DNA of 64,000 nt from Nemertoderma westbladi (taxonomy: Eukaryota > Animalia > Xenacoelomorpha), in assembly GCA_032718475.1 (NCBI GenBank), contig JAUCBJ010000162.1, forward strand, positions 25,557 to 89,556. Reading direction: 5' to 3'. A program made the translations under genes and the position numbers. Of the stretch, positions 7,039 to 60,657 are shown piece by piece. How positions within the stretch are numbered: the first letter of the stretch is position 1; every line of letters starts with the position of its first letter. Under the pieces are notes generated by a model that saw only the letters and a list, made by a program, of their open reading frames with translations, made no database searches and was not told where the DNA came from.

Positions 7039-8124
7039 ATGGATCCCGGCTCTGTAGGCCAGGACAGCAGCCCAGCTCGTCCAGGCAGTTCTGGAGAGCG
7101 AATTTCTCTATTGTCAGACACTGGTGATGATTTCGGTCTGGAACTCATCCCGGGCGAGTCGATAAAACGACCTGTTGACACGGGTGTTTCTTATCTATGT
7201 CCGTATTCCAGGCCCAGTCGCCCCATGGCACCGGCCGGGATAAAAGGCACCTTGTTGGTGACCAATTACCGACTGGTCTTTATCGCAAATAACAGCAATG
7301 AGCTTCCAGAAAAGGTGGAGGTCGCCCTAGCCGCTATTCATCGTCTCGATAAGGTCGGGAGTCAGACGACCCGAAGAGAAATATACGGAATCGAGATCTT
7401 CTGTAAAGATATGCGGAATCTGAGGTTCTCCATGAATCAAGAGAATCGTTCCCGTAAGGGCATCTACGATAAACTGCAGTCGCACGCGTTCCAGATGAGT
7501 AACAATCTTCCTTTGTTCGCATTCGAGAACAAGGAGATTAGTAAGGAGGCTGACGTTGGTTGGGAGGTCTACAATGCGGAGCACGAGCTAGCGAGATTGG
7601 GCGTCCCAAACGAGAATTGGAAGTTGTACAGCAACGCGTCGTACCAGCTGTGCGATACCTACCCTGCGTTGCTCGCTGTCCCTCATAAACTGGGCGACGA
7701 CGAATTGCGTCGCGTCGCCGAATTCCGATCCCGTGCGCGGATTCCCGTGCTCTCATGGAAACACCCGAGCACCGAGGCTGTAATTATGCGTTGCGCGCAA
7801 CCATTAGTCGGTTTGGCGGGGCGACGGTGCAAGGAGGATGAGAACTACATTCAGGAGGTGGTCAACCTTAATGCGAACGCCAACAAGGTTTACATCCTCG
7901 ATGCCCGTCCAAACATGAATGCGACCGCTAATAAAACCAAAGGCGGTGGATTCGAAGAGAGTAGCTCTTACGCGAATATTGAGTTATACTTCTTCCATAT
8001 CCACAACATTCATGTGATGAGGGAAAGTTTGCGGAAACTAAAAGACGTTGTGTTTCCCGTCATAGATGATTCCAGGTGGTTGTCCAATATCGAATCTACT
8101 CAGTGGTTGGATCATATCAAACAG
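7039..8124 (+). CDS. MTMR2: Myotubularin-related phosphoinositide 3-phosphatase (MTM1/MTMR1/2 class), exon 1, nested in a CFAP206 intron
   Basis: PH-GRAM (GTLLVTNYRLVF, IFCKDMRNLRF) and myotubularin domain (LCDTYP, FRSRARIPVLSW, DARP, IHNIHVMRESL, WLDHIK). Ends CAG|gtgagt in phase 0. Start taken at the first ATG (7039). Confidence 0.9.
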
Positions 8125-11100
8125 GTGAGTCCAGTCAGTGGTTGGATCATATTAAACAGGTGAGTCCACTCAGGAGTGGTTGGATCATATCTAACAGGTG
8201 AGTCCACTCAGTGGTTGGATCATATCAAACAGGTGTGTCCACTCAGTAGTGGTTGGATCATATCAAACAGGTGAGTCCAGTGGTTAGATCATATCAAACA
8301 GGTGAGTCCAGTCAGTGGTTGGATCATATCAAACAGGTGTGTCCACTCAGTAGTGGTTGGATCATATCAAACAGGTGAGTCCACTCATTAGTGGTTGGAT
8401 CATATCAAACAGGTGAGTCCACTCAGTAGGGGTTGGATCATATCAAACAGGTGAGTCCACTCAGTAGTGGTTGGATCTTATCAAACAGGTGAGTCCACTC
8501 AGTAGTGGTTGGATCATATCAAACAGGTGAGTCCACTCAGTAGTGGTTGGATCATATCAAACAGGTGAGTCCACTCAGTAGTGGTTGGATCATATCAAAC
8601 AGGTGAGTCCAGTGGTTAGAGCATATCAAACAGGTGAGTCCACTCAGTAGTGGTTGGATCATATCAAACAGGTGAGTCCACTCAGTAGTGGTTGGATCAT
8701 ATCAAACAGGTGAGTCCACTCAGTAGTGGTTGGATCATATCAAACAGGTGAGTCCACTCAGTAATGGTTGGATCATATCAAACAGGTGAGTCCAGTGGTT
8801 GGATCATATCAAACAGGTGAGTCCACTCAGTAGTGGTTGGATCATATCAAACAGGTGAGTCCAGTGGTTGGATCATATCAAACAGGTGAGTCCACTCAGT
8901 AGTGGTTGGATCATATCAAACAGGTGAGTCCACTCAGTAGGGGTTGGATCATATCAAACAGGTGAGTCCAGTGGTTGGATCATATCAAACAGGTGAGTCC
9001 AGTCAGTGGTTGGATCATATCAAACAGGTGAGTCCAGTGGTTGGATCATATCAAACAGGTGAGTCCACTCAGTAGTGGTTGGATCATATCAAACAGGTGA
9101 GTCCAGTGGTTGGATCATATCAAACAGGTGAGTCCAGTGGTTGGATCATATCAAACAGGTGAGTCCACTCAGTAGTGGTTGGATCATATCAAACAGGTGA
9201 GTCCAGTGGTTGGATCATATCAAACAGGTGAGTCCAGTCAGTGGTTGGATCATATCAAACAGGTGAGTCCAGTGGTTGGATCATATCAAACAGGTGAGTC
9301 CACTCAGTAGTGGTTGGATCATATCAAACAGGTGAGTCCACTCAGTAGGGGTTGGATCATATCAAACAGGTGAGTCCAGTGGTTGGATCATATCAAACAG
9401 GTGAGTCCAGTGGTTGGATCATATCAAACAGGTGAGTCCACTCAGTAGTGGTTGGATCATATCAAACAGGTGTGTCCACTCAGTAGTGGTTGGATCATAT
9501 CAAACAGGTGAGTCCACTCATTAGTGGTTGGATCATATCAAACAGGTGAGTCCAGTGGTTGGATCATATCAAACAGGTGAGTCCAGTCAGTGGTTGGATC
9601 ACATCAAACAGGTGAGTCCACTCAGTAGGCCTAGTGGTTGGATCATATCAAACAGGTGAGTCCAATGGTTGGATCATATCAAACAGGTGAGTCCACTCAG
9701 TAGTGGTTGGATCATATCAAACAGGTGAGTCCAGTGGTTGGATCATATCAAACAGGTGAGTCCAGTCAGTGGTTGGATCACATCAAACAGGTGAGTCCAG
9801 TGGTTGGATCATATCAAACAGGTGAGTCCACTCAGTAGTGTTTGGATCATATCAAACAGGTGAGTCCACTCAGTAGTGGTTGGATCATATCAAACAGGTG
9901 AGTCCAGTGGTTGGATCATATCAAACAGGTGAGTCCAGTGGTTGGATCATATCAAACAGGTGAGTCCAGTCAGTGGTTGGATCACATCAAACAGGTGAGT
10001 CTAGTGGTTGGATCATATCAAACAGGTGAGTCCACTCAGTAGTGGTTGGATCATATCAAACAGGTGAGTCCAGTGGTTGGATCATATCAAACAGGTGTGT
10101 CCACTCATGAGTGGTTGGATCATATCTAACAGGTGAGTCCACTCAGTGGTTGGATCATATCAAACAGGTGATTCCACTCATTAGTGGTTGGATCATATCA
10201 AACAGGTGAGTCCACTCAGTGGTTGGATCATATCAAACAGGTGAGTCCACTCAGTAGTGGTTGGAGCATATCAAACAGGTGAGTCCACTCAGTAGTGGTT
10301 GGATCATATCAAACAGGTGAGTCCACTCAGTAGTGGTTGGATCATATCAAACAGGTGAGTCCACTCAGTAGTGGTTGGATCTTATCAAACAGGTGAGTCC
10401 ACTCAGTGGTTGGATCATATCAAACAGGTGAGTCCAGTGGTTGGATCATATCAAACAGGTGAGTCCAGTCAGTGGTTGGATCATATCAAACAGGTGAGTC
10501 CAGTGGTTGGATCATATCAAACAGGTGTGTCCACTCAGTAGTGGTTGGATCATATCAAACAGGTGAGTCCAGTGGTTAGATCATATCAAACAGGTGAGTC
10601 CAGTCAGTGGTTGGATCATATCAAACAGGTGTGTCCACTCAGTAGTGGTTGGATCATATCAAACAGGTGAGTCCACTCAGTAGTGGTTGGATCATATCAA
10701 ACAGGTGAGTCCAGTCAGTGGTTGGATCATATCAAACAGGTGTGTCCACTCAGTAGTGGTTGGATCATATCAAACAGGTGAGTCCACTCAGTAGTGGTTG
10801 GATCATATCAAACAGGTGAGTCCACTCAGTAGTGGTTGGATCATATCAAACAGGTGAGTCCACTCAGTAGTGGTTGGATCATATCAAACAGGTGAGTCCA
10901 CTCAGTAGTGGTTGGATCATATCAAACAGGTGAGTCCACTCAGTAGTGGTTGGATCATATCAAACAGGTGAGTCCACTCAGTAGTGGTTGGATCATATCA
11001 AACAGGTGAGTCCACTCAGTAGTGGTTGGATCATATCAAACAGGTGAGTCCACTCAGTGGTTGGATCATATCAAACAGGTGAGTCCACTCAGTCGTGGTT

Positions 11101-12003
11101 GGTTCATATCAAACAGGTGAGTCCACTCAGTAGTGGTTGGATCATATCAAACAGGTGAGTCCACTCAGTAGTGGTTGGATCATATCAAACAGGTGAGTCC
11201 ACTCAGTAGTGGTTGGATCATATCAAACAGGTGAGTCCACTCAGTAGTGGTTGGATCATATCAAACAGGTGAGTCCACTCAGTAGTGGTTGGATCATATC
11301 AAACAGGTGAGTCCACTCAGTAGTGGTTGGATCATATCAAACAGGTGAGTCCACTCAGTAGTGGTTGGATCATATCAAACAGGTGAGTCCAGTCAGTAGT
11401 GGTTGGATCATATCAAACAGGTGAGTCCACTCAGTAGTGGTTGGATCATATAAAACAGGTGAGTCCACTCAGTGGTTGGATCATATCAAACAGGTGAGTC
11501 CACTCAGTAGTGGTTGGATCATATCAAACAGGTGAGTCCACTCAGTAGTGGTTGGATCATATCAAACAGGTGAGTCCACTCAGTAGTGGTTGGATCATAT
11601 CAAACAGGTGAGTCCAGTGGTTGGATCATATCAAACAGGTGAGTCCACTCAGTGGTTGGATCATATCAAACAGGTGAGTCCACTCAGTAGTGGTTGGATC
11701 ATATCAAACAGGTGAGTCCACTCAGTGGTTGGATCATATCAAACAGGTGAGTCCACTCAGTAGTGGTTGGATCATATCAAACAGGTGAGTCCACTCAGTA
11801 GTGGTTGGATCATATCAAACAGGTGAGTCCACTCAGTAGTGGTTGGATCATATCAAACAGGTGAGTCCACTCAGTGGTGGTTGGATCATATCAAACAGGT
11901 GAGTCCACTCAGTAGTGGTTGGATCATATCAAACAGGTGAGTCCACTCAGTAGTGGTTGGATCATATCAAACAGGTGAGTCCAGTAGTTGGATCATATTA
12001 AAC
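8098..12003 (+). repeat. Tandem array of the MTMR2 exon-1 donor junction (31/35/38-bp units, roughly 105-110 copies)
   Basis: Unit agtggttggatcatatcaaacag|gtgagtcc(actc/agtc/actcagt) = end of the exon plus start of the intron. Fills about 96% of the 4015-nt intron. Confidence 0.97.
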
Positions 12004-12139: not shown

Positions 12140-12883
12140 ATATTATCATCGGCCCTGCGAGTCGCTGAGAGAGTGGAGAGTCTGAAGGAGTCGGTGGTGA
12201 TTCACTGTAGCGACGGTTGGGACCGGACCGCCCAACTTACATCGCTGTCTATGCTACTACTAGACCCCTACTACCGGACTATAAAAGGGTTCCAAGTGCT
12301 TGTCGAGAAGGAATGGCTAAGTTTCGGACACAAATTCTCGCAACGAGTCGGTCATGGGGACCGGAACTACGCTGACGCCGACCGCTCTCCGGTCTTCCTA
12401 CAGTTCATCGACTGTGTCTGGCAACTAACCCAACAGTTCCCGGTCGCCTTCCAGTTCAACGAGCACTTCCTAATAACGATAATGGACCATCTGTACAGCT
12501 GTCGTTTCGGTACCTTCCTGTGTAACGCGGAGCGGGAGCGCGTTACAGAGAAACTCCGAGAGCGATCGCCCTCGCTGTGGTCGTACATCCTCCAGTCCGT
12601 GGACGAGTACACAAACCCGCTGTACGCGGAGTACTCGGTGCAATGCGTGCTGTACCCCGCGGCGACCCTGCGGCGTATAAAGCTGTGGATCGGGTACTAC
12701 GTGCGATGGAACCCGAGCATGCACCCTCAGGAGTCAGTGTTGTCTCAGACAATAGATCTACTGAAGATTAGAGATCAGTTAAAGAAGCAACGGGACGAGT
12801 TGCAACGACAATTCGAACACAAAGAAAAACTTGGGATTATTAAATCGCGAAAGGGAGCCACTTCAACAACCACCGTCATATGA
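12140..12883 (+). CDS. MTMR2: Myotubularin-related protein exon 2 (catalytic loop, coiled coil, PDZ-type tail)
   Basis: ttttccag|ATA TTA... Intact catalytic [35 protein letters not shown], coiled coil and C-terminal TTVI. AATAAA near 12927. Spliced product is 609 aa. Confidence 0.93.
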
Positions 12884-18931: not shown

Positions 18932-19048
18932 AATAGAGAAGATAATGTACCACCGCTTCAGTTGGTGGTTGATTCCTTGATCAACACTCGCCAATACGAG
19001 GCCTTCCTTGTTCATCTGCAAACAGATGTAATAGAGTGCGCCAGACAG
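18932..19048 (+). CDS. CFAP206: CFAP206 internal exon D
   Basis: tttttag|AAT AGA...AGA CAG|gtgag. Encodes NREDNVPPLQLVVDSLINTRQYEAFLVHLQTDVIECARQ (cf. vertebrate ALYNIRQYEVFLQIILSDII). Phase 0 to 0. Confidence 0.85.
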
Positions 19049-21240
19049 GTGAGTGGACTAATTGACTTCCTTGTTCATCTGCAAACAGATGTAATAGAGT
19101 GCGCCAGACAGGTGAGTGGACTAATTGACTTCCTTGTTCATATGCAAACAGATGTAATAGAGTGCGCCAGACAGGTGAGTGGACCAATTGACTTCCTTGT
19201 TCATCTGCAAACAGATGTAATAGAGTGCGCCAGACAGGTGAGTGGACCAATTGACTTCCTTGTTCATCTGCAAACAGATGTAATAGAGTGCGCCAGGCAG
19301 GTGAGTGGACCAATTGACTTCCTTGTTCATCTGCAAACAGATGTAATAGAGTGCGCCAGACAGGTGAGTGGACCAATTGACTTCCTTGTTCATCTGCAAA
19401 CAGATGTAATAGAGTGCGCCAGACAGGTGAGTGGACCAATTGACTTCCTTGTTCATCTGCAAACAGATGTAATAGAGTGCGCCAGACAGGTGAGTGGACC
19501 AATTGACTTCCTTGTACATATGCAAACAGATGTAATAGAGTGCGCCAGACAGGTGAGTGGACTAATTGACTTCCTTGTTCATATGCAAACAGATGTAATA
19601 GAGTGCGCCAGACAGATGAGTGGACCAATTGTCTTCCTTGTTCATATGCAAACAGATGTAATAGAGTGCGCCAGACAGGTGAGTGGACTAATTGACTTCC
19701 TTGTTCATATGCAAACAGATGTAATAGAGTGCGCCAGACAGATGAGTGGACCAATTGTCTTCCTTGTTCATATGCAAACAGATGTAATAGAGTGCGCCAG
19801 ACAGGTGAGTGGACTAATTGACTTCCTTGTTCATATGCAAACAGATGTAATAGAGTGCGCCAGACAGGTGAGTTGACCAATTGACTTCCTTGTACATATG
19901 CAAACAGATGTAATAGAGTGCGCCAGACAGGTGAGTGGACCAATTGACTTCCTTGTTCATATGCAAACAGATGTAATAGAGTGCGCCAGAAAGGTGAGTG
20001 GAACAATTGACTTCCTTGTACATATGCAAACAGATGTAATAGAGTGCGCCAGACAGGTGAGTGGACTAATTGACTTCCTTGTTCATATGCAAACAGATGT
20101 AATAGAGTGCGCCAGACAGGTGAGTTGACCAATTGACTTCCTTGTACATATGCAAACAGATGTAATAGAGTGCGCCAGACAGGTGAGTTGACCAATTGAC
20201 TTCCTTGTACATATGCAAACAGATGTAATAGAGTGCGCCAGACAGGTGAGTGGACTAATTGACTTCCTTGTTCATATGCAAACAGATGTAATAGAGTGCG
20301 CCAGACAGGTGAGTTGACCAATTGACTTCCTTGTACATATGCAAACAGATGTAATAGAGTGCGCCAGACAGGTGAGTGGACTAATTGACTTCCTTGTTCA
20401 TATGCAAACAGATGTAATAGAGTGCGCCAGACAGGTGAGTTGACCAATTGACTTCCTTGTACATATGCAAACAGATGTAATAGAGTGCGCCAGACAGGTG
20501 AGTGGACCAATTGACTTCCTTGTTCATATGCAAACAGATGTAATAGAGTGCGCCAGAAAGGTGAGTGGAACAATTGACTTCCTTGTACATATGCAAACAG
20601 ATGTAATAGAGTGCGCCAGACAGGTGAGTGGACCAATTGACTTCCTTGTTCATATGCAAACAGATGTAATAGAGTGTGCCAGAAAGGTGAGTGGAACAAT
20701 TGACTTCCTTGTTCATATGCAAACAGATGTAATAGTGCGCCAGACAGGTGAGTGGACCAATTGACTTCCTTGTTCATCTGCAAACATATGTAATAGAGTG
20801 CGCCAGACAGATGAGTGGACCAATTGACTTACTTGTTGTTCATCTGCAAACATATGTAATAGAGTGCGCCAGACATGTGAGTGGACGAATTGACTTCCTT
20901 GTTCATATGCAAACAGATGTAATAGAGTGCGCCAGACAGGTGAGTGGACCAATTGACTTCCTTGTTCATATGCAAACAGATGTAATAGAGTGCGCCAGAC
21001 AGGTGAGTGGACCAATTGACTTCCTTGTTCATCTGCAAACATATGTAATAGAGTGCGCCAGACAGGTGAGTGGACCAATTGACTTCATTGTTCATCTGCA
21101 AACAGATGTAATAGAGTGCGCCAGGCAGGTGAGTGGACCAATTGACTTCCTTGTTCATCTGCAAACATATGTAATAGAGTGCGCGAGACATGTGAGTGGA
21201 CCAATTGACTTCCTTGTACATATGCAAACAGATGTAATAG
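19004..21240 (+). repeat. Tandem array of the CFAP206 exon-D donor junction (63-bp unit, about 35 copies)
   Basis: Unit = last 45 nt of the exon plus the first 18 nt of the intron (gtgagtggac(c/t)aattgac). Confidence 0.97.
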
Positions 21241-30302: not shown

Positions 30303-30311
30303 GTAAATAAC

Positions 30312-37159: not shown

Positions 37160-37239
37160 GTAACTAAATCCGAGCTGCCGCCCCAGTTGAACTCTAAGAA
37201 CTACACTGCTAGCTAGCCGAACTCCACCGACAAGACGAG

Positions 37240-45782: not shown

Positions 45783-45890
45783 AATGGAGTTAGAGTGGAG
45801 TTTAGTCGTCCAAGCTTTGGACTGAGGGGGGTGGGATTGAGGGCGAGACGCCCTTCCCACACAAATAAAATAAAAATAAAATAAAAACAA

Positions 45891-47043: not shown

Positions 47044-49578
47044 ATGGCGAGTAAGCTGATCAGGAAGAGAAAGGCGGAGTCAGGAGGAAAAGAAATACTG
47101 GTGGATTTCACCGAAAGACACCCGGAGGAGAAGACGAGAGGATACTACGAGAAGTTGGAAAGGGGTCACGCGGCACGAGCGCTGCAGGACCACTTCCGGG
47201 AGATGCACGAGCAGCGGCTGGTCGGGACCTACGGAACACCGTCGCTGGACAACGCGATCTTCCAACACTTCCACTACGTGGTGAAAGGAGACGAGGCGAA
47301 GTTCGGGATTCCGAAGTATCCGAGGGAATCGCCGAGGAAGGACTGGAAAAGATTCATAGAGTCCGTCAACCGAGGAGGATATATGATCCTAGATGACGAG
47401 GGAACCGTGGAGGACGAAGCGGGTTCGAGACGAGGAACGGCAGGGTCGGCCAGGACCATACTCTTGCATTTGGCCGCGCCAAATGGGGACATCTTCTTAT
47501 TCGACCTAGGGACGTATGGGAAGAGGGATGGGCCGAAACTAGACCGATTACCGAAAGCGGTACAAGTCTTAGTAAGGGAGAAGTCGACGACGAAGGTGGG
47601 ATCGGCGATTCGCGAGGACGCGGAGAGGATCATCGGTCCGGACGCCACCAACCTCCTGGATATGCAGAAAGTCTTTATGGCTATGACGGCACCGGATGGA
47701 TTGGGGGTGGTCGAGAACACAGGCCAATGCGGGGCGGTGGCGATGGGCCAATTATTGGGGCTCGTATGCCACAAACCGATGGACTGGGGAAAGTTTAGGG
47801 AAGAATACGGAGCAGAACTGGCGAACTCGCTGAAGTGGGGAGCGAGACCGGGAAAGCAGGAGGTATATCAGTTTCGCAGAGGAGCGATAAAGGTATATCA
47901 GAAGCGATATATCCTGCAGGAGGACTGGATGATGATAAGTTTGCTTAACTTATTCATGACCGTAGTTATCGAAAGGGAACCAGGGGCATTTCTGTTATCG
48001 GGATCACCCCTAAGCTACAGGAGAGCCTTTAAGACGGCCTTTGACGGTCTGGTAGACCACCCGGGGCTGAAGGGCGAGTCGGTGTACTACAACAGCCGAC
48101 ATCTGGTAGACGGGGAGACGGATACACCGTATCAGAGATGGGAGCAGCTAGAGGCGGACAGACGAGAAGCAAAGCGACTGGAAGAAGTCGCTAGACGGGA
48201 GAGGATAGAAGCAGAGGAGAGGGAAGAGGAGGCCAGGGCACAGAGTTACGGCTTCGAGGAACAGGCGGGCCTAGACGAACTTCATTGGACTTCGTCAGGG
48301 AGTTCGGGGGAGTCTCTAGGGCGAGAATTGGGATGGACGGTGGGATCGCCGAAACAGTCGACGTCGGGGTTGCAAACGATGCCCATGCCAGCGGGCGCCG
48401 AGGGCGACCAACCGCCAAGGAAGCTAAGGGAGCTAGAGGGATGGAGAGCTACGGGCGAGAGCCAAGGCGGGAAGGGACATAGTGGATCCATCGGGATACC
48501 GGGGTTGGAAACACTACCAGAAGAGGAAGACGGCGACGACGAGTTCGGAGAGATACCGCCCATCGAGAGGATAGGCCACTCGGACACGGACTGGGTTGGC
48601 GGAAGGGTGGTGACAGCCAGTGGGGCGAGGGCCTTCTGGAACAGATCCGGCAAGCGGACCTGGGTGCACGAGGGGCCGGCGATGGATTTCGCGGGGAGCA
48701 CCATCAGGTTGGGCGAGCAACCGGGAACAGCACCACGGATAGTATTCGGGGAGACGATGCCCGAGAGGGGCGGAGAGATCGACGTAAACAGGGAGAGCAA
48801 TGTAGAGAAGTTCGCCTACCAGCGACTCCATAGACCGCGGAGATCGCTTGGGACGAAAGACGAGGTGGGACGGGAGACATTGGTACTCGGCTGCGACTAC
48901 TGTGGGAGACAGACCCATCAGGAAAGCAGCTGCCTATACCGGTTCCAACGGGGAACCTTTTGTCTCTACTGTAGAGAACCAAGTCACAGGATGGGGGCGT
49001 GTCCACGGTTGCATAACCGATGTCCAAAGTGCCACTTTCGGGGACACTACGGACGCGAGTGCGACTGGATGAGCGACGAGGAGAAGTTCACGAGGTTCGA
49101 GGAGTGGGCCGACGTCGGGGCCATGACGCGCCAGCGCATGAAGGCCCAAGAGTTCAAGTGGGGTTTCTTCCTCATAAACCAGGAGACCCACATGGAAATC
49201 ATAAAGCGAAGGTTACCGTTTACCTATCAAGAGGTAGCAACGGCGGCGTCGTTCGCCGGAGTTATGAACACGCAACGGTACCTGGACAGGTGGACACCAG
49301 AGAACCGGAGGGAGTTTAGGGATTTCTTGGCGGAACACGTACCAAAGGCAATGAAAATGATCCTATGGGACGCCACACGAGGGAGACAACCAGGCCATTC
49401 TGAGGGGCCACCGGCGAAGCGGTATCGGGCATTAATAACACCAGCGCCCAAGGAGCCGACGACCGGGATCAGCAAGGAAGTGGCGGCGAAGGTCCGGAAG
49501 CAGAAAGCGGATGATGCCAGAGGAGCGGTGATAACCAAGAAACGGGCCAGGGAAGAGGACGTGAGGAGGAACAGATAA
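47044..49578 (+). CDS. Retrotransposon extra ORF: putative DEDDy (WRN/RNase D-like) 3'-5' exonuclease plus 3 CCHC zinc knuckles
   Basis: Intact 844 aa. ILDDEG (ExoI-like), LLHLAA..IFLFDL, LPKAVQVLVREKSTTKVGSAIREDAERI (ExoII-like), YQKRYILQED (ExoIII-like). Knuckles CDYCGRQTHQESSC, CLYCREPSHRMGAC, CPKCHFRGHYGREC. The ORF is certain; the exonuclease call rests on motif recognition. Confidence 0.7.
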   Translation: MASKLIRKRKAESGGKEILVDFTERHPEEKTRGYYEKLERGHAARALQDHFREMHEQRLVGTYGTPSLDNAIFQHFHYVVKGDEAKFGIPKYPRESPRKDWKRFIESVNRGGYMILDDEGTVEDEAGSRRGTAGSARTILLHLAAPNGDIFLFDLGTYGKRDGPKLDRLPKAVQVLVREKSTTKVGSAIREDAERIIGPDATNLLDMQKVFMAMTAPDGLGVVENTGQCGAVAMGQLLGLVCHKPMDWGKFREEYGAELANSLKWGARPGKQEVYQFRRGAIKVYQKRYILQEDWMMISLLNLFMTVVIEREPGAFLLSGSPLSYRRAFKTAFDGLVDHPGLKGESVYYNSRHLVDGETDTPYQRWEQLEADRREAKRLEEVARRERIEAEEREEEARAQSYGFEEQAGLDELHWTSSGSSGESLGRELGWTVGSPKQSTSGLQTMPMPAGAEGDQPPRKLRELEGWRATGESQGGKGHSGSIGIPGLETLPEEEDGDDEFGEIPPIERIGHSDTDWVGGRVVTASGARAFWNRSGKRTWVHEGPAMDFAGSTIRLGEQPGTAPRIVFGETMPERGGEIDVNRESNVEKFAYQRLHRPRRSLGTKDEVGRETLVLGCDYCGRQTHQESSCLYRFQRGTFCLYCREPSHRMGACPRLHNRCPKCHFRGHYGRECDWMSDEEKFTRFEEWADVGAMTRQRMKAQEFKWGFFLINQETHMEIIKRRLPFTYQEVATAASFAGVMNTQRYLDRWTPENRREFRDFLAEHVPKAMKMILWDATRGRQPGHSEGPPAKRYRALITPAPKEPTTGISKEVAAKVRKQKADDARGAVITKKRAREEDVRRNR

Positions 49579-50285
49579 GTTCCCAGAGACGAGAGAGTGA
49601 GACTGAGACTGGAAAGTGGTGCGCCTGGAAGGCGCCGCATGGAACGTACGAACTATTAAATACAAATTTATTTAATTAATGCAAATAACCATATAAGTGC
49701 AATTCGTATGTACGTACGTAGTAATTAGCAGTAAATACACGATCGGAGTAAGTACTATAGTCATACAACCTTTCTCAATTAGCTACTGGGACTGGGGGAC
49801 AACTGACTATGGCACTATGGACGAGACAACTGACAATTTCACGCTTCTTGAGTGCGACGGCACGAGAGGGGGGGGAGGTTCGTCAGAAGAGATAAAATAG
49901 TCAAAGTGGAGTTGAGGACCGGAGTAAGAGTGCGAAGTGCGGAGAGAGTGCCGATGCAATTCTAGTGTGGGGGGGGGGGAGAATAAGAGGCTGAGTAAGG
50001 GACGAGGAGGTCCGAACGTGAGAGAGTTAGGGTGAGAGTGAAGGTGAGATAGGGCGAAAATGTTGGGGAAACAAAAGTTGCGTGGGAGGTGAGCGCGATC
50101 GGCCCGACATGAGACGCCAGGCACACAGGGTAGCGTTATCATACCCATAGGGGGCGGCCTGGAAAGCCGACCCCGAGAGAAAAGAATTCCACCCCACACC
50201 CGATACTAGATCGGGATCCAGCGGGATTGTAACGCACTTTTTGGTTGATGCTATCTTCTTACCGGGAAGATAGCATGGGGGGGAG

Positions 50286-50826
50286 TGTTAGCTTATTCAA
50301 TCCCGCCAACACCCCATAAAGTTATAAGCCGATAAGCAATATTGGGAGCCACGAGATTGGGCAATTAACCAACTCGTGCCATCCCAATAAGAGTGGGAAG
50401 GAAGCACACAATAGAGGGTCAGGGGCCAAACCCCTAACCCAGGGAGAACAGGTGGAGTGAACGGGAATACTCCACGGGGCGCCAACAAGGGTATTAACCA
50501 ATCAGAGGGGGGGAATGGCATCGATTGAGTAGCAGTAAGGCCACCGTGCAATATAACCAATAACCTATTAATCAGTGATTCAGTTATCTCAGTGCAGCAG
50601 TGCTAGCGTAGGGTACAGTCAATTAGTTTAGTTAGGGGATCACGGGACTTTAGTTACCGTATCCCGCCTTGTACACATTATATCTATATCTATATCCTAT
50701 GCCCTATTATTATTATACACCGAACTTCAGAACTCAGTTACTTTATTTCACCCTTATACACGGCGGGGACGCGTGGACTAAATTACCACATCGGATAAAT
50801 CGGGATCCCTCCTGGATCCCGTCACA
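50286..50826 (+). repeat. 3' LTR (541 bp)
   Basis: Direct repeat of 36619-37159, preceded by the PPT and followed by the TSD GTTCC. Confidence 0.97.
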
Positions 50827-53312
50827 GTTCCTGGCAACCCTTCTATCGGAGTGTTTGTTTATTGTTTAGATTACTAGTTCCTGGCAACCCTTCTATCGGA
50901 GTGTTTGTTTATTGTTTAGATTACTAGTTCCTGGCAACCCTTCTATCGGAGTGTTTGTTTACTGTATAGATTACTAGTTCGTTGCAACCCAACTATTAGA
51001 GTGTTTGTTTACTGTTTAGATTACTAGTTCCTGGCAACCCTTCTATCGGAGTGTTTGTTTATTGTTTAGATTACTAGTTCCTGGCAACCCTTCTATCGGA
51101 GTGTTTGTTTACTGTATAGATTACTAGTTCTTGGCAACCCAACTATTAGAGTGTTTGTTTATTGTTTAGATTACTAGTTCGTTGCAACCCAACTATTAGA
51201 GTGTTTGTTTATTGTTTAGATTACTAGTTCCTGGCAACCCTTCTATCGGAGTGTTTGTTTACTGTTTAGATTACTAGTTCCTGGCAACCCTTCTATCGGA
51301 GTGTTTGTTTATTGTTTAGATTACTAGTTCCTGGCAACCCTTCTATCGGAGTGTTTGTTTACTGTATAGATTACTAGTTCGTTGCAACCCAACTATTAGA
51401 GTGTTTGTTTATTGTTTAGATTACTAGTTCCTGGCAACCCTTCTATCGGAGTGTTTGTTTACTGTTTAGATTACTAGTTCCTGGCAACCCTTCTATCGGA
51501 GTGTTTGTTTATTGTTTAGATTACTAGTTCCTGGCAACCCTTCTATCGGAGTGTTTGTTTACTGTATAGATTACTAGTTCTTGGCAACCCAACTATTAGA
51601 GTGTTTGTTTACTGTTTAGATTACTAGTTCCTGGCAACCCAACTATTACAGTGTTTGTTTATTGTTTAGATTACTAGTTCTTGGCAACCCAACTATTAGA
51701 GTGTTTGTTTACTGTTTAGATTACTAGTTCCTGGCAACCCAACTATTACAGTGTTTGTTTATTGTTTAGATTACTAGTTCCTGGCAACCCAACTATTAGA
51801 GTGTTTGTTTTCTGTATAGATTACTAGTTCTTGGCAACCCAACTATTAGAGTGTTTGTTTTCTGTATAGATTACTAGTTCCTGGCAACCCAACTATTAGA
51901 GTGTTTGTTTACTGTTTAGATTACTAGTTCCTGGCAACCCTTCTATCGGAGTGTTTGTTTATTGTTTAGATTACTAGTTCCTGGCAACCCTTCTATCGGA
52001 GTGTTTGTTTACTGTATAGATTACTAGTTCGTTGCAACCCAACTATTAGAGTGTTTGTTTATTGTTTAGATTACTAGTTCCTGGCAACCCTTCTATCGGA
52101 GTGTTTGTTTACTGTTTAGATTACTAGTTCCTGGCAACCCTTCTATCGGAGTGTTTGTTTATTGTTTAGATTACTAGTTCCTGGCAACCCTTCTATCGGA
52201 GTGTTTGTTTACTGTATAGATTACTAGTTCTTGGCAACCCAACTATTAGAGTGTTTGTTTACTGTTTAGATTACTAGTTCCTGGCAACCCAACTATTACA
52301 GTGTTTGTTTATTGTTTAGATTACTAGTTCTTGGCAACCCAACTATTAGAGTGTTTGTTTATTGTTTAGATTACTAGTTCCTGGCAACCCAACTATTATA
52401 GTGTTTGTTTACTGTTTAGATTACTAGTTCGTTGCAACCCAACTATTAGAGTGTTTTTTTATTGTTTAGATTACTAGTTCTTGGCAACCCAACTATTAGA
52501 GTGTTTGTTTTCTGTTTAGATTACTAGTTCTTGGCAACCCAACTATTAGAGTGTTTGTTTTCTGTTTAGATTACTAGTTCCTGGCAACCCAACTAATAGA
52601 GTGTTTGTTTATTGTTTAGATTACTAGTTCCTGGCAACCCTTCTATCGGAGTGTTTGTTTACTGTTTAGATTACTGGTTCCTGGCAACCCTTCTATCGGA
52701 GTGTTTGTTTATTGTTTAGATTACTAGTTCCTGGCAACCCTTCTATCGGAGTGTTTGTTTACTGTATAGATTACTAGTTCTTGGCAACCCAACTATTAGA
52801 GTGTTTGTTTATTGTTTAGATTACTAGTTCCTGGCAACCCAACTAATAGAGTGTTTGTTTATTGTTTAGATTACTAGTTCCTGGCAACCCTTCTATCGGA
52901 GTGTTTGTTTACTGTTTAGATTACTGGTTCCTGGCAACCCTTCTATCGGAGTGTTTGTTTATTGTTTAGATTACTAGTTCCTGGCAACCCTTCTATCGGA
53001 GTGTTTGTTTACTGTATAGATTACTAGTTCTTGGCAACCCAACTATTAGAGTGTTTGTTTATTGTTTAGATTACTAGTTCCTGGCAACCCTTCTATCGGA
53101 GTGTTTGTTTATTGTTTAGATTACTAGTTCCTGGCAACCCAACTATTAGAGTGTTTGTTTATTGTATAGATTACTAGTTCCTGGCAACCAAACTATTAGA
53201 GTGTTTGTTTACTCTTTAGATTACTAGTTCCTGGCAACCCAACTATTAGAGTGTTTGTTTATTGTTTAGATTACTAGTTCCTGGCAACCCTTCTATCGGA
53301 GTGTTTGTTTAC
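50827..53312 (+). repeat. 50-bp acceptor-junction array, right arm (about 50 copies), ending in the real exon
   Basis: Same unit as 30312-36618. The last copy runs into unique coding sequence at about 53313. Confidence 0.97.
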
Positions 53313-53399
53313 CGCTCACGGTATTACTCATTCAGTTCAAAGGAAGCAGCTGGGGAATTTTGTAAAGACCCTGAAGGATTTATTGCGATGATAGGAGAG
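53270..53399 (+). CDS. CFAP206: CFAP206 internal exon G (hidden between two arrays)
   Basis: tgtttag|A TTA CTA GTT CCT GGC AAC CCT TCT ATC GGA...GGA GAG|gttag. Encodes LLVPGNPSIGVFVYRSRYYSFSSKEAAGEFCKDPEGFIAMIGE (cf. LLLPGNPAIGILKYKEKYYTFNSKDAAYSFAENPE). Phase 2 matches exon F. Confidence 0.92.
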
Positions 53400-56300
53400 G
53401 TTAGTTATGTTATGTGAGGTTAGTTATGTTAGGAGAGGTTAGTTATGTTAGGAGAGGTTAGTTATGTTATGTGAGGTTAGTTATGTTAGGAGAGGTCAGT
53501 TCTGATACATAGGAGAGGTTAGTTATGTTAGGTGAGGTTAGTTCTGATACATAGGAGAGGTTAGTTATGTAAGGTGAGGTTAGTTCTGATACATAGGAGA
53601 GGTTAGTTATGTTAGGTGTGGTTAGTTCTGATACATAGGAGAGGTTAGTTATGTTAGGTGAGGTTAGTTCTGATACATAGGAGAGGTTAGTTATGTTAGG
53701 TGTGGTTAGTTCTGATACGTAGGAGAGGTTAGTTATGTAAGGTGAGGTTAGTTCTGATACATAGGAGAGGTTAGTTATGTTAGGTGAGGTTAGTTCTGAT
53801 ACATAGGAGAGGTTATTTATGTTAGGTGAGGTTAGTTCTGATACATAGGAGAGGTTAGTTATGTTAGGTGAGGTTAGTTCTGATACATAGGAGAGGTTAG
53901 TTATGTTAGGTGAGGTTAGTTCTGATACATAGGAGAGGTTAGTTATGTAAGGTGAGGTTAGTTCTGATACATAGGAGAGGTTAGTTATGTTAGGTGTGGT
54001 TAGTTCTGATACATAGGAGAGGTTAGTTATGTTAGGTGAGGTTAGTTCTGATACATAGGAGAGGTTAGTTATGTTAGGTGTGGTTAGTTCGGATACATAG
54101 GAGAGGTTAGTTATGTTAGGTGAGGTTAGTTCTGATACATAAGAGAGGTTAGTTATGTTAGGTGTGGTTAGTTCTGATACATAGGAGAGGTTAGTTATGT
54201 TAGGTGAGGTTAGTTCTGATATATAGGAGAGGTTAGTTATGTTAGGTGAGGTTGGTTCTGATACGTAGGAGAGGTTAGTTATGTTAGGAGAATTTAGTTA
54301 TGTAAGGTGAGGTTAGTTCTGATACATAGGAGAGGTTAGTTATGTTAGGTGAGGTCAGTTCTGATACATAGGAGAGGTTAGTTATGTTAGGTGAGGTTAG
54401 TTCTGATACATAGGAGAGGTTAGTTATGTTAGGTGAGGTTAGTTCTGATACATAGGAGAGGTTAGTTATGTTAGGTGAGGTTAGTTCTGATACATATGAG
54501 AGGTTAGTTATGTTAGGTGAGGTTAGTTCTGATACATAGGAGAGGTTAGTTATGTTAGGTGAGGTTAGTTCTGATACATAGGAGAGGTTAGTTATGTTAG
54601 GTGGGGTTAGTTCTGATACATAGGAGAGGTTAGTTATGTTAGGTGAGGTTAGTTCTGATACATAGGAGAGGTTAGTTATGTTAGGTGAAGTTAGTTCTGA
54701 TACATATGAGAGGTTAGTTATGTTAGGTGAGGTTAGTTCTGATACATAGGATAGGTTAGTTATGTTAGGTGAGGTTAGTTCTGATACATAGGAGAGGTTA
54801 GTTATGTTAGGTGAGGTTAGTTCTGATACATATGAGAGGTTAGTTATGTTAGGTGAGGTTAGTTCTGATACATAGGAGAGGTTAGTTATGTTAGGTGAGG
54901 TTAGTTCTGATACATATGAGAGGTTAGTTATGTTAGGTGAGGTTAGTTATGTTAGGTGAGGTTAGTTCTGATACATAGGAGAGGTTAGTTATGTTAGGTG
55001 AGGTTAGTTCTGATACATAGGAGAGGTTAGTTATGTTAGGTGAGGTTAGTTCTGATACATAGGAGAGGTTAGTTATGTTAGGTGAGGTTAGTTCTGATAC
55101 ATAGGAGAGATTAGTTATGTTAGGTGAGGTTAGTTCTGATACATAGGAGAGGTTAGTTATGTTAGGTGAGGTTAGTTCTGATACATAGGAGAGGTTAGTT
55201 ATGTTAAGTGAGGTTAGTTCTGATACATATGAGAGGTTAGTTATGTTAGGTGAGGTTAGTTCTGATACATAGGAGAGGTTAGTTATGTTAGGTGAGGTGA
55301 GGTTAGTTCTGATACATAGGAGAGGTTAGTTATGTTAGGTGAGGTTAGTTCTGATACATAGGAGAGGTTAGTTATGTTAGGTGAGGTTAGTTCTGATACA
55401 TAGGAGAGGTTAGTTATGTTAGGTGAGGTTAGTTCTGATACATAGGAGAGGTTAGTTATGTTAGGTGAGGTTAGTTATGTAAGGTGAGGTTAGTTCTGAT
55501 ACATAGGAGAGGTTAGTTATGTTAGGTGGGGTTAGTTCTGATACATAGGAGAGGTTAGTTATGTTAGGTGAGGTTAGTTCTGATACATATGAGAGGTTAG
55601 TTATGTTAGGTGAGTTTAGTTATGTAAGGTGAGGTTAGTTCTGATACATAGGAAAGGTTAGTTATGTTAGGTGAGGTCAGTTCTGATACATAGGAGAGGT
55701 TAGTTATGTTAGGTGAGGTCAGTTCTGATACATAGGAGAGGTTAGTTATGTTAGGTGAGGTTAGTTCTGATACATAGGAGAGGTTAGTTATGTTAGGTGT
55801 GGTTAGTTCTGATACATAGGAGAGGTTAGTTATGTTAGGTGAGGTCAGTTCTGATACATAGGAGAGGTTAGTTATGTTAGGTGAGGTTAGTTCTGATACA
55901 TAGGAGAGGTTAGTTATGTTAGGTGAGGTTAGTTCTGATACATAGGAGAGGTTAGTTATGTTAGGTGAGTTTAGTTATGTAAGGTGAGGTTAGTTCTGAT
56001 ACATAGGAAAGGTTAGTTATGTTAGGTGAGGTCAGTTCTGATACATAGGAGAGGTTAGTTATGTTAGGTGAGGTTAGTTCTGATACATAGGAGAGGTTAG
56101 TTATGTTAGGTGAGTTTAGTTATGTAAGGTGAGGTTAGTTCTGATACATAGGAAAGGTTAGTTATGTTAGGTGAGGTCAGTTCTGATACATAGGAGAGGT
56201 TAGTTATGTTAGGTGAGGTTAGTTCTGATATATAGGAGAGGTTAGTTATGTTAGGTGAGGTTAGTTATGTAAGGTGAGGTTAGTTCTGATACATAGGAGA

Positions 56301-59300
56301 GGTTAGTTATGTTAGGTGAGTTTAGTTATGTAAGGTGAGGTTAGTTCTGATACATAGGAGAGGTTAGTTATGTTAGGTGAGGTTAGTTCTGATACATAGG
56401 AGAGGTTAGTTATGTTAGGTGAGGTTAGTTCTGATACATAGGAGAGGTTAGTTATGTTAGGTGAGGTTAGTTATGTAAGGTGAGGTTAGTTCTGATACAT
56501 AGGAGAGGTTAGTTATGTTAGGTGAGTTTAGTTATGTAAGGTGAGGTTAGTTCTGATACATAGGAAAGGTTAGTTATGTTAGGTGAGGTTAGTTCTGATA
56601 CATATGAGAGGTTAGTTATGTTAGGTGAGTTTAGTTATGTAAGGTGAGGTTAGTTCTGATACATAGGAGAGGTTAGTTATGTTAGGTGAGGTTAGTTCTG
56701 ATACATAGGAGAGGTTAGTTATGTTAGGTGAGGTTAGTTCTGATACATAGGAGAGGTTAGTTATGTTAGGTGAGTTAGTTCTAATACATAGGAGAGATTA
56801 GTTATGTTAGGTGAGGTTAGTTCTGATACATAGGAGAGGTTAGTTATGTTAGGTGAGGTTAGTTCTGATACATAGGAGAGGTTAGTTATGTTAGGTGAGG
56901 TTAGTTCTGATACATAGGAGAGGTTAGTTATGTTAGGTGAGGTTAGTTATGTAGGTGAGGTTAGTTCTGATACATAGGAGAGGTTAGTTATGTTAGGTGA
57001 GTTTAGTTATGTAAGGTGAGGTTAGTTCTGATACATAGGAAAGGTTAGTTATGTTAGGTGAGGTTAGTTCTGATACATATGAGAGGTTAGTTATGTTAGG
57101 TGAGTTTAGTTATGTAAGGTGAGGTTAGTTCTGATACATAGGAGAGGTTAGTTATGTTAGGTGAGGTTAGTTCTGATACATAGGAGAGGTTAGTTATGTT
57201 AGGTGAGGTTAGTTCTGATACATAGGAGAGGTTAGTTATGTTAGGTGAGGTTAGTTCTAATACATAGGAGAGGTTAGTTATGTTAGGTGAGGTTAGTTCT
57301 GATACATAGGAGAGGTTAGTTATGTTAGGTGAGGTTAGTTCTGATACATAGGAGAGGTTAGTTATGTTAGGTGAGTTAGTTCTAATACATAGGAGAGGTT
57401 AGTTATGTTAGGTGAGGTTAGTTCTGATACATAGGAGAGGTTAGTTATGTTAGGTGAGGTTAGTTATGTAAGGTGAGGTTAGTTCTGATACATAGGAGAG
57501 GTTAGTTATGTTAGGTGAGGTTAGTTCTGATACATAGGAGAGGTTAGTTATGTTAGGTGGGGTTAGTTCTGATACATAGGAGAGGTTAGTTATGTTAGGT
57601 GGGGTTAGTTCTGATACATAGGAGAGGTTAGTTATGTTAGGTGAGGTTAGTTCTGATACATATGAGAGGTTAGTTATGTTAGGTGAGTTTAGTTATGTAA
57701 GGTGAGGTTAGTTCTGATACATAGGAAAGGTTAGTTATGTTAGGTGAGGTCAGTTCTGATACATAGGAGAGGTTAGTTATGTTAGGTGAGGTTAGTTCTG
57801 ATACATAGGAGAGGTTAGTTATGTTAGGTGAGGTTAGTTCTGATACATAGGAGAGGTTAGTTATGTTAGGTGTGGTTAGTTCTGATACATAGGAGAGGTT
57901 AGTTATGTTAGGTGAGGTCAGTTCTGATACATAGGAGAGGTTAGTTATGTTAGGTGAGGTTAGTTCTGATACATAGGAGAGGTTAGTTATGTTAGGTGAG
58001 GTTAGTTCTGATACATAGGAGAGGTTAGTTATGTTAGGTGAGGTTAGTTCTGATACATAGGAGAGGTTAGTTATGTAAGGTGAGGTTAGTTCTGATACAT
58101 AGGAGAGGTTAGTTATGTTAGGTGAGGTTAGTTCTGATACATAGGAGAGGTTAGTTATGTTAGGTGAGGTCAGTTCTGATACATAGGAGAGGTTAGTTAT
58201 GTTAGGTGAGGTTAGTTCTGATACATAGGAGAGGTTAGTTATGTTAGGTGAGGTTAGTTCTGATACATAGGAGAGGTTAGTTATGTTAGGTGAGGTTAGT
58301 TCTGATACATAGGAGAGGTTAGTTATGTTAGGTGAGGTTAGTTCTGATACATAGGAGAGGTTAGTTATGTTAGGTGAGGTTAGTTCTGATACATAGGAGA
58401 GGTTAGTTATGTTAGGTGAGGTTAGTTCTGATACATAGGAGAGGTTAGTTATGTTAGGTGAGGTTAGTTCTGATACATAGGAGAGGTTAGTTATGTTAGG
58501 TGAGGTTAGTTCTGATACATAGGAGAGGTTAGTTATGTTAGGTGAGGTTAGTTCTGATACATAGGAGAGGTTAGTTATGTTAGGTGAGGTTAGTTCTAAT
58601 ACATAGGAGAGGTTAGTTATGTAAGGTGAGGTTAGTTCTGATACATAGGAGAGGTTAGTTATGTTAGGTGAGGTTAGTTCTGATACATAGGAGAGGTTAG
58701 TTATGTTAGGTGAGGTTAGTTCTGATACATAGGAGAGGTTAGTTATGTTAGGTGAAGTTAGTTCTAATACATAGGAGAGGTTAGTTATGTAAGGTGAGGT
58801 TAGTTCTCATACATAGGAGAGGTTAGTTATGTTAGGTGAGGTGAGGTTAGTTCTGATACATAGGAGAGGTTAGTTATGTTAGGTGTGGTTAGTTCTGATA
58901 CATAGGAGAGGTTAGTTATGTTAGGTGAGGTTAGTTCTGATACATAGGAGAGGTTAGTTATGTTAGGTGAGGTTAGTTCTGATATATAGGAGAGGTTAGT
59001 TATGTTAGGTGAGGTTAGTTCTGATACATAGGAGAGGTTAGTTATGTTAGGTGAGGTTAGTTCTGATACATAGGAGAGGTTAGTTATGTTAGGTGAAGTT
59101 AGTTCTAATACATAGGAGAGGTTAGTTATGTAAGGTGAGGTTAGTTCTGATACATAGGAGAGGTTAGTTATGTTAGGTGTGGTTAGTTCTGATACTTAGG
59201 AGAGGTTAGTTATGTTAGGTGAGGTTAGTTCTGATACATAGGAGAGGTTAGTTATGTTAGGTGAAGTTAGTTCTAATACATAGGAGAGGTTAGTTATGTA

Positions 59301-60657
59301 AGGTGAGGTTAGTTCTGATACATAGGAGAGGTTAGTTATGTTAGGTGAGGTTAGTTCTGATACATAGGAGAGGTTAGTTATGTTAGGTGAGGTTAGTTCT
59401 GATACATAGGAGAGGTTAGTTATGTTAGGTGAAGTTAGTTCTATTCTAATACATAGGAGAGGTTAGTTATGTAAGGTGAGGTTAGTTCTGATACATAGGA
59501 GAGGTTAGTTATGTTAGGTGTGGTTAGTTCTAATACATAGGAGAGGTTAGTTATGTTAGGTGAGGTTAGTTCTGATACATATGAGAGGTTAGTTATGTTA
59601 GGTGTGGTTAGTTCTGATACATAGGAGAGGTTAGTTATGTTAGGTGAGGTTAGTTCTGATATATAGGAGAGGTTAGTTATGTTAGGTGAAGTTGGTTCTG
59701 ATACGTAGGAGAGGTTAGTTATGTTAGGAGAGTTTAGTTATGTAAGGTGAGGTTAGTTCTGATACATAGGAGAGGTTAGTTATGTTAGGTGAGGTCAGTT
59801 CTGATACATAGGAGAGGTTAGTTATGTTAGGTGAGGTTAGTTCTGATACATAGGAGAGGTTAGTTATGTTAGGTGAGGTTAGTTCTGATACATAGGAGAG
59901 GTTAGTTATGTTAGGTGAAGTTAGTTCTAATACATAGGAGAGGTTAGTTATGTAAGGTGAGGTTAGTTCTGATACATAGGAGAGGTTAGTTATGTTAGGT
60001 GAGGTTAGTTCTGATACATAGGAGAGGTTAGTTATGTTAGGTGAGGTTAGTTCTGATACATAGGAGAGGTTAGTTATGTAAGGTGAGGTTAGTTCTGATA
60101 CATAGGAGAGGTTAGTTATGTTAGGTGAGGTTAGTTCTGATACATAGGAGAGGTTAGTTATGTTAGGTGTGGTTAGTTCTGATACATAGGAGAGGTTAGT
60201 TATGTTAGGTGAGGTTAGTTCTGATATATAGGAGAGGTTAGTTATGTTAGGTGAGGTTAGTTCTGATACATAGGAGAGGTTAGTTATGTTAGGTGAGGTT
60301 AGTTCTGATACATAGGAGAGGTTAGTTATGTTAGGTGAAGTTAGTTCTAATACATAGGAGAGGTTAGTTATGTAAGGTGAGGTTAGTTCTGATACATAGG
60401 AGAGGTTAGTTATGTTAGGTGAGGTTAGTTCTGATACATAGGAGAGGTTAGTTATGTTAGGTGTGGTTAGTTCTGATACATAGGAGAGGTTAGTTATGTT
60501 AGGTGAGGTTAGTTCTGATATATAGGAGAGGTTAGTTATGTTAGGTGAGGTTAGTTCTGATATATAGGAGAGGTTAGTTATGTTAGGTGAGGTTAGTTCT
60601 GATATATAGGAGAGGTTAGTTATGTTAGGTGAGGTTAGTTCTGATACGTAGGAGAGG
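53391..60657 (+). repeat. Tandem array of the CFAP206 exon-G donor junction (42-bp unit = 19+23, roughly 170 copies)
   Basis: Unit ataggagag|gttagttatgttaggtgaggttagttctgatac. Its first 9 nt are the exon end. Confidence 0.96.

What the first reader, a model, noticed from the sequence alone, without database searches (positions are those of the whole stretch)
8098..60657. Four independent satellites, each amplified from a real exon-intron junction
Seen: the four largest tandem arrays have different units (31-38, 63, 50, 42 bp), yet each unit is a copy of the functional splice junction it abuts. Three are donors (8124, 19048, 53399) and one is an acceptor (53270), in two different genes. In every case the array extends into the intron and the copy contiguous with unique exon sequence gives the homologue-like protein. 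Together they make up about 22 kb of the window. Inference: either a junction-biased amplification mechanism (for example splicing/R-loop-coupled slippage or rolling-circle reinsertion) or selective tolerance of such duplications drives intron gigantism here, and the spliceosome must ignore hundreds of near-identical decoy sites. Tandem duplication of AG|GT as a route to intron gain is a known model, but I do not know a described case at this scale and density.
Basis: partly seen in the sequence, partly recalled or inferred. Interest (0 to 1): 0.88.

Follow-up and report, generated by a model that had tools for sequence, protein, structure and literature searches.

The report
Four giant splice-junction "mirage" repeats
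In two nested animal genes, four exon edges with their splice signals have each been copied 36 to about 345 times into the neighbouring intron, and the one RNA data set checked shows, directly or by length, only the exon-side copy in use; this is a large, dense case of a repeat type already named "mirage" in lancelets, likely tolerated clutter.

Summary
Four unrelated arrays (22,219 bp) each repeat the splice junction they abut: a myotubularin (MTMR2-like) donor at 8124, and CFAP206 donors at 19048 and 53399 and its acceptor at 53270. They hold 562 exact decoy sites.

Short-read depth at two arrays is about 90-150 times single copy, so these are not assembly errors. Copies lose residues conserved in homologues, so the exon is the source.

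The kind is known: lancelet "mirages" and human F7, CBS, IFI6 (6-16), LMNB2 and PDGF minisatellites. This scan has noted it before on other DNA, including clustered cases and larger ones.

Notable here: the scale; one exon flanked by arrays on both sides; a 23-kb intron made only of about 7 unique bases, array and one retrotransposon; and 11 in-frame, stop-free decoy donors apparently skipped. Junction overlap beats chance in this window (P about 1e-4 to 1e-6, post hoc). No genome was available, so lineage-wide bias and its cause are untested. No intron gain occurred.

The parts
7039..8124 (+). Myotubularin (MTMR2-like) first coding exon, nested on the same strand in a CFAP206 intron; ends at the donor copied in array A
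   Evidence: Pfam GRAM and Myotub-related; 50-55% identity to MTMR2 hits; RNA-type contig leaves the window at 8124
8098..11997 (+). Array A: 109 units of 31/35/38 bp (about 27 exon + 8 intron bases); 99 exact CAG|GTGAGT decoy donors
   Evidence: depth at 8136 is about 88 and 108 times the flank in runs X2 and X4
12140..12883 (+). Myotubularin second coding exon; joined directly to 8124 in the RNA-type contig
   Evidence: loose end behind 8124 equals the start of this exon; Pfam profile positions continue 216 to 217
2738..4727 (+). CFAP206 exons 2738-2946, 3761-3883 and 4562-4727 (no arrays)
   Evidence: GT..AG joints seen in run X1
18932..19048 (+). CFAP206 exon ending at the donor copied in array B
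   Evidence: contig-length arithmetic
19003..21262 (+). Array B: 36 units of 63 bp (46 exon + 17 intron bases); 26 exact decoy donors, 11 of them in frame and before the first stop
26101..26332 (+). CFAP206 exon (no array)
30116..30302 (+). CFAP206 exon; the intron after it (30303-53269, 22,967 bp) is about 7 unique bases, array C and one LTR element
30309..36618 (+). Array C, left part: about 127 units of 50 bp (8 intron + 42 exon bases); 114 decoy acceptors; 8 of 124 units are exon-type
36619..50826 (+). BEL/Pao LTR retrotransposon inserted inside array C; 541-bp LTRs differing at 2 positions; 5-bp target duplication
   Evidence: Pfam DUF1759, Peptidase_A17, DUF5641, integrase
50827..53311 (+). 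Array C, right part: about 49 units ending in the real acceptor and exon start; 37 decoy acceptors; 24 of 50 units are exon-type, the exon included
   Evidence: depth about 149 times the flank in run X4
53270..53399 (+). 130-bp CFAP206 exon flanked by array C on its acceptor side and array D on its donor side
   Evidence: RNA-type contig covers 53298-53400 and continues into sequence that is not on the laid stretch; Pfam FAP206
53391..60658 (+). Array D: 345 subunits of 19 and 23 bp, mostly alternating as a 42-bp dimer; 286 exact GAG|GTTAGT decoy donors
   Evidence: depth about 1500 against 32 in run X2, nothing laid in X4

Best explanation
These are four independent 'mirage' minisatellites: each is a short stretch across an exon edge copied in tandem into the intron, likely begun by a local duplication and grown by unequal exchange, and likely tolerated because splicing picks the exon-side copy. 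Shown: the unit spans a used junction; the exon is the source; the copies drift freely; blocks of several units were duplicated recently; and the main RNA contigs use the exon-side site (two junctions directly, two by length). Inferred: (1) birth by slippage or microhomology-mediated break repair; (2) growth by unequal crossover or gene conversion, with the exon copy re-seeding its neighbours; (3) site choice by first-come donor scanning, as shown for human F7, and by exon definition for the acceptor; (4) removal of any leak by nonsense-mediated decay in three of the four arrays. The clustering at junctions is most simply explained if duplications start preferentially in or beside exons, and only those that stay in frame or spill into an intron survive. 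That step is untested.
For: Direction: the exon keeps a Gly found in 115 of 115 covering homologues, while 137 of 167 array C copies change it to Arg. Distinct substitutions in array C run 18 non-synonymous to 5 synonymous on the left and 11 to 3 on the right, as expected without selection.

Polarity: in array B the mean difference from the exon rises 0.5, 1.4, 1.6, 2.0 by quarter. Exon-type units are 23 of 49 on the exon side of the LTR element against 8 of 124 on the far side (Fisher P 4e-9). The far-end copies of A, B and C are degenerate.

Block growth: exact repeats of 847 bp at offset 1347 (C left), 463 at 650 (C right), 298 at 567 (B), 288 at 339 (A) and 297 at 475 (D).

Splicing: in run X1 the myotubularin contig (depth 1081) goes from 8124 to 12140. 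The CFAP206 contig of 1422 nt equals 859+117+232+187+27 and so ends at 53296; the next contig starts at 53298; run X2 shows a variant base at 53297. The second contig leaves at 53399/53400.

No decoy donor of A (0 of 99) or D (0 of 286) is in frame before the first stop, and all 6 exon-nearest decoy acceptors tested give a stop.

The only other array of 10 or more copies and a unit of 30 bp or more outside the transposon lies in frame inside an open reading frame (36 bp x 10).

Published kind: PMC3087553, PMC3902484 and PMC1557585.
Against: The explanation does not itself account for four such arrays at 16 coding junctions while about 16.7 kb of other non-exonic sequence holds only three small arrays. 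The exon-biased birth step was added for that and is untested; GC content does not supply it, since units C and D are 34-38% GC. Array A shows no gradient of divergence. Run X1 holds a 68-nt contig of array A at depth 295, 27% of the mRNA contig's depth; it could be unspliced RNA summed over many copies, or use of later donors. RNA support is one run, listed as 'DNA?', and contigs drop rare forms. The 19048 and 53270 results rest on length arithmetic. Array B was not checked with reads.
Confidence: 0.68

Rival explanations
1. A splicing- or transcription-coupled mutation process (R-loops or breaks at exon-intron edges, possibly RNA-templated repair) seeds and expands arrays specifically at splice junctions throughout this lineage, and is a main driver of intron growth.
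For: All four large non-coding arrays outside transposons sit on used junctions (P 1e-4 to 1e-6 in the window). In three of four, the intron share of the unit is only 8-17 bases, little more than the splice signal. Unchecked notes of this scan report similar clusters in other invertebrate windows.
Against: One window, chosen after the fact from a very large scan. The other 14 junction positions tested (12 coding, 2 from the non-canonical 5' joint) show no trace of duplication: scores 11-18, against a random median of 14 and a 90th percentile of 19. Nothing in the sequence requires an RNA step. Transposons add about 19 kb against 22 kb of arrays.
Confidence: 0.2
2. The arrays are kept by selection: extra U1 sites or recursive-splicing points help to process very long introns, or tune expression through unproductive splicing.
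For: Hundreds of intact donors; units A, B and D carry AG|GT; array A sequence is present in the RNA-type run. In the 30303-53269 intron the array is now nearly the whole intron body, so at least one or two units would be needed as spacer and acceptor context.
Against: Pyrimidine content before the AG|GT of the units is 0.37-0.47, against 0.58-0.79 at the 8 true acceptors, so they are poor recursive sites. Copies drift without visible constraint. A transposon sits in the middle of one array. The arrays create much of the length they would be helping with.
Confidence: 0.07
3. Chance: ordinary intronic minisatellites in a repeat-rich genome that happen to overlap junctions in this one window.
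For: The window was picked from about 250,000; with so many draws, a P of 8.5e-5 can be met.
Against: The stricter test (four largest of four) gives 1.6e-6 to 4e-6. Lancelet genes show repeated cases (PMC3087553, PMC3902484).
Confidence: 0.04
4. Assembly artefact: long-read stutter inflated the arrays.
For: Runs X2 and X4 may be the source of the window; arrays B and D were not, or only partly, checked with reads.
Against: Depth about 88, 108 and 149 times the single-copy flank (the tool warns that depth is no copy number). Structured variant blocks. An LTR element with a target duplication inside array C.
Confidence: 0.01

Closest known systems
Amphioxus 'mirage' minisatellites (globins BflGb6 and BflGb9, Adh3, troponin C, PGBD5). 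PMC3087553 and PMC3902484: passages read. The original Adh3 paper (PMC117041) is not held and was seen only as cited.
   Same: [quoted passage not shown]
   Different: The passages give 2-7 copies, units of 10-160 bp; here 36 to about 345 copies and 2-9 kb per array. Copy numbers for Adh3 were not visible to me. The host here is a long-branched animal that does not group with Branchiostoma. One intron here consists almost wholly of array and a transposon.
Human junction-spanning minisatellites: F7 intron 7 (37 bp), CBS intron 13, interferon-inducible 6-16, lamin B2, PDGF intron 4. PMC1557585 (Borensztajn et al. 2006): abstract and passages read.
   Same: The first unit holds the real donor; identical pseudo-donors follow; the most upstream site is used (F7, lamin B2, PDGF), by 5'-to-3' scanning in F7.
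   Different: 5-25 copies, one array per gene, donors only in the cases listed. In CBS and 6-16 the next two pseudo-sites are also used, which is not excluded here for array A.
Intron gain by tandem duplication of an AG|GT site (Rogers model), as cited in PMC3087553 and PMC2812944 (passages read)
   Same: Units A, B and D contain AG|GT, so the raw material is present.
   Different: No intron here has both ends supplied by repeat copies; the acceptors at 12139 and 26100 and the donor at 30303 lie in unique sequence.

Membership tests
Mirage / junction-spanning minisatellite | Tandem unit spans a real exon-intron boundary | tested here: met
   4 of 4 arrays
Mirage / junction-spanning minisatellite | Extra copies lie in the intron and the main mRNA is spliced normally | tested here: met
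   One RNA-type run; direct for 8124 and 53399, by length for 19048 and 53270; minor forms cannot be seen in contigs
Mirage / junction-spanning minisatellite | Concerted evolution of inner copies, end copies left out | tested here: met
   Exact multi-unit blocks in all arrays and degenerate far-end copies in A, B and C
Mirage / junction-spanning minisatellite | Length instability between haplotypes or cells | tested here: inconclusive
   Depth ratios at array A differ between two runs (about 88 and 108), but contig depth is not a copy number
Intron gain by AG|GT tandem duplication | New intron whose donor and acceptor both come from copies of one unit | tested here: not met
   Partner sites 12139, 26100 and 30303 are in unique sequence; the partner acceptor of 53399 was not located
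Recursive splicing ratchet points | AG|GT preceded by a pyrimidine tract | tested here: not met
   0.37-0.47 pyrimidines at 6 AG|GT sites tested against 0.58-0.79 at 8 true acceptors
Recursive splicing ratchet points | Sawtooth nascent-RNA coverage or ratchet junction reads | not testable with these tools
   Only assembled contigs were offered
Dispersed satellite DNA family | Same unit at many unlinked places | tested here: inconclusive
   Each unit is confined to its own locus within the window; depth ratios near the assembled copy number argue against many other loci for A and C; no genome held

The most novel reading that the evidence does not exclude
This animal lineage has a genome-wide process that amplifies its own splice junctions into multi-kilobase arrays, to the point of replacing whole intron bodies with exon-derived copies, so that intron size and even the acceptor context come from the exon. 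It would be a natural, gene-by-gene test of how a spliceosome picks one site among hundreds of identical ones, including arrays where nonsense-mediated decay could not hide errors.
Probability: 0.22. Interest if true: 0.75.

Novelty: new member of a known kind. Interest (0 to 1): 0.42.

Why it matters
The repeat type is known but little studied. In my searches of the held library I found no genome-wide test of whether arrays favour splice junctions. This window adds three useful cases. (1) Array B has 11 in-frame, stop-free decoy donors, so apparent use of the first donor points to splice-site choice, not decay of wrong products. (2) One 130-bp exon is picked out between 151 decoy acceptors and 286 decoy donors. 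(3) In one 23-kb intron the original body is gone and the sequence before the acceptor is itself a copy of the exon. If a whole-genome count confirmed the excess, it would point to a mutation bias at exon edges as a route to intron growth. On present evidence it is a large example of tolerated repeat clutter.

Tried and rejected
Whole-genome test: no genome is held; place look-ups in earlier notes returned nothing, nor did a look-up with an interspersed repeat of this window.

RNA: no RNA holder listed. Run X1 was treated as RNA only because its contigs are spliced and have zero depth in most intron bins. Run X8 laid nothing.

Host lineage: unresolved. CFAP206 joins three rows including an acoel at 88% support, on a long branch, in a quick tree of 64 rows (63 of the 120 homologues, chosen by me). 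Best myotubularin hits are only 50-55% identical. A word search of one xenacoelomorph genome paper (PMC11521371, passages) found 0 occurrences of 'tandem' or 'satellite'; this says nothing about this organism.

Possible fifth case: the 36 bp x 3.2 array at 16386-16500 has a donor-like motif after an ATG, but no partner exon was found among 67 plus-strand open stretches scanned (67 of 92 listed; one hit, below its curated cut-off). Not counted.

Old duplications at the other junctions: none at 14 of 14 tested.

Frame rule: rejected, as two unit lengths are multiples of three and two are not. GC-richness as cause: rejected for C and D. Intron gain and ratchet points: see the membership tests.

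The Adh3 mirage paper could not be read. I did not open supplements; those of PMC3087553 and PMC3902484 hold the mirage alignments and may bear on the copy-number comparison. PMC7615360 (passages) supports microhomology-mediated duplication and an insertion bias in repeats at human meiotic breaks; it is background only and was not tested here.
Full report
What is in the window. This is animal DNA; no whole genome is held. A CFAP206 gene runs on the plus strand with seven exons between 2738 and 53399. The joined model has 388 residues, no stop, and 60-65% identity to the top 60 of 120 homologues printed. Inside its third visible intron lies a myotubularin (MTMR2-like) gene on the same strand, coding 7039-8124 and 12140-12883. 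The host is unresolved: a quick tree puts it on a long branch beside three rows including an acoel, at 88% support.

The observation. TRF finds the four arrays; they total 22,219 bp. Array A has 109 units of 31-38 bp, B 36 of 63 bp, C about 176 of 50 bp in two parts, and D 345 subunits of 19 and 23 bp that alternate as a 42-mer. Exact decoy sites number 99, 26, 286 and 151. No 14-mer of any unit occurs outside its own array; five of six unit pairs score at shuffle level, and A versus B is reached by 3 of 300 shuffles. Array C is split by a 14.2-kb BEL/Pao element with 541-bp LTRs that differ at 2 positions and a 5-bp target duplication, so the array predates a recent insertion.

Are the junctions used? 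The run search listed eight runs, none on record as RNA. Run X1 nevertheless behaves as RNA: its contigs skip two GT..AG introns and have zero depth in most intron bins. Its myotubularin contig (depth 1081) leaves the window at 8124 and continues with the first bases of the exon at 12140. Its CFAP206 contig is 1422 nt long, of which 859 are accounted for at 4727. The remaining 563 equal the next three exons plus 27 bases, ending at 53296. The next contig begins at 53298, and run X2 shows a variant base at 53297, which explains the break. This fits use of the first donor at 19048 and the last acceptor at 53270, by arithmetic and not by a seen joint. The second contig leaves at 53399/53400 into new sequence. 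Against a clean picture: X1 also holds a 68-nt contig of array A at depth 295, 27% of the mRNA depth. Unspliced RNA summed over many copies would explain it, but so would use of later donors. This is one run, and contigs drop rare forms.

Are the arrays real? In runs X2 and X4, depth at array A is about 88 and 108 times the single-copy flank (assembly: 109 units). At array C it is about 149 times in X4 (assembly: 151 exact acceptor copies). The tool warns that depth is no copy number and that these runs may be the window's source.

Direction and growth. The exon is the source. It keeps a glycine present in 115 of 115 covering homologues, while 137 of 167 array C copies change it to arginine, and distinct changes are mostly non-synonymous. 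Copies nearest the exon resemble it most in B (0.5 to 2.0 differences by quarter) and in C (exon-type units 23 of 49 on the exon side of the insertion, 8 of 124 beyond it); A shows no gradient. Exact blocks of 288-847 bp recur at offsets of several units in all arrays, and the far-end copies of A, B and C are degenerate. This is the usual signature of unequal exchange or gene conversion (established knowledge; also described for mirages in PMC3087553).

Why it is tolerated. No decoy donor of A (0 of 99) or D (0 of 286) is in frame before a stop, and all 6 exon-nearest decoy acceptors tested give a stop, so decay could clear errors there (inference). Array B differs: 11 of 26 decoys are in frame and stop-free, yet the contig length fits the first donor. 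That favours choice at the splicing step, as shown for human F7 by 5'-to-3' scanning (PMC1557585, abstract and passages). The units are poor recursive sites, and no new intron was formed.

An unusual consequence. The 22,967-bp intron from 30303 to 53269 is about 7 unique bases, then array C, the LTR element and array C again. Its first partial copy is already exon-like. The original intron body appears lost, and the sequence before the working acceptor is an exon-derived copy. I did not see this stated in the passages I read.

Chance. With arrays and transposons removed, 23,102 bp remain. Random units of these sizes span one of 18 junctions with P 0.02-0.06; four of four gives 1.6e-6 to 4e-6, and at least 4 of 7 arrays gives 8.5e-5. 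The test is post hoc and the scan is very large. The other 14 junction positions tested show no old duplication. The only other array of 10 or more copies with a unit of 30 bp or more outside the transposon is in frame inside an open reading frame. This suggests that duplications begin in or beside exons and survive only if in frame or pointing into an intron. That idea is untested.

What is known. Earlier notes of this scan gave the lead 'mirage', which I checked in print. [quoted passage not shown] PMC3902484 adds PGBD5 and troponin C (passages). PMC1557585 lists five human cases with 5-25 copies. PMC2812944 found 27 intron modifications by repeats at exon-intron boundaries in human duplications (passages). 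The Adh3 paper is not held, and I opened no supplements. Searches returned no genome-wide test of junction enrichment. Unchecked notes of this scan report the same kind in urchins, annelids, sharks and a clam, one with about 377 copies, several windows with clusters, and one genome sample with no excess over chance.

Verdict. It is a new, large and dense member of a known kind. The open question, whether a bias puts arrays on junctions genome-wide and why, cannot be settled from this window. Interest 0.42.

Noticed in passing
window 6844-12883 inside 4728-18931: The myotubularin gene, with its own intron and about 100 decoy donors, is nested on the same strand inside a CFAP206 intron; both give spliced contigs in run X1.
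   Followed up: partly
window 16386-16500: 36 bp x 3.2 array with a donor-like motif just after an ATG on the plus strand; on the minus strand the unit holds an AATAAA about 150 bases past the stop of the acyltransferase gene. Could be a fifth, small case or a repeated poly(A) signal. No partner exon found.
   Followed up: partly
window 16646-17655, minus strand: Intronless diacylglycerol acyltransferase (Pfam DAGAT) nested antisense in the same CFAP206 intron.
   Followed up: partly
window 21915-23636, minus strand: Long open frame with a weak zinc-finger match below the curated cut-off and an in-frame 12-residue repeat x 10 (21947-22318), nested antisense in a CFAP206 intron.
   Followed up: partly
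window 36619-50826: Young BEL/Pao element with an extra 805-residue frame before gag-pol and an 850-residue frame after it; neither matched Pfam, and the second matched no solved structure. Between pol and that frame lies a 32-bp array (45892-46540) with an AG|GT donor-like motif.
   Followed up: partly
window 6072-6129 and 6844: The myotubularin contig of run X1 joins 6129 to 6844 with GT..AT ends, and lacks 8 bases at 6882 as does run X2: a non-canonical 5' intron or a structural allele.
   Followed up: no
window 53297: Synonymous variant in the doubly flanked exon (run X2), at a position where most array copies also differ from the exon.
   Followed up: partly
window 13700-15200 and 60740-63901: Two LINE-like reverse-transcriptase elements inside CFAP206 introns; the second matched Pfam RVT_1 and an endonuclease, the first is broken by stops and was identified by eye only.
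   Followed up: no
window 23840-25660 and 26400-27360: Two probable short inverted-repeat elements (by eye), with small internal repeats.
   Followed up: no
window 1-545, minus strand: Start of an Mpp10 gene, apparently also inside the span of CFAP206, whose first 84 residues lie upstream of the first exon found here.
   Followed up: no
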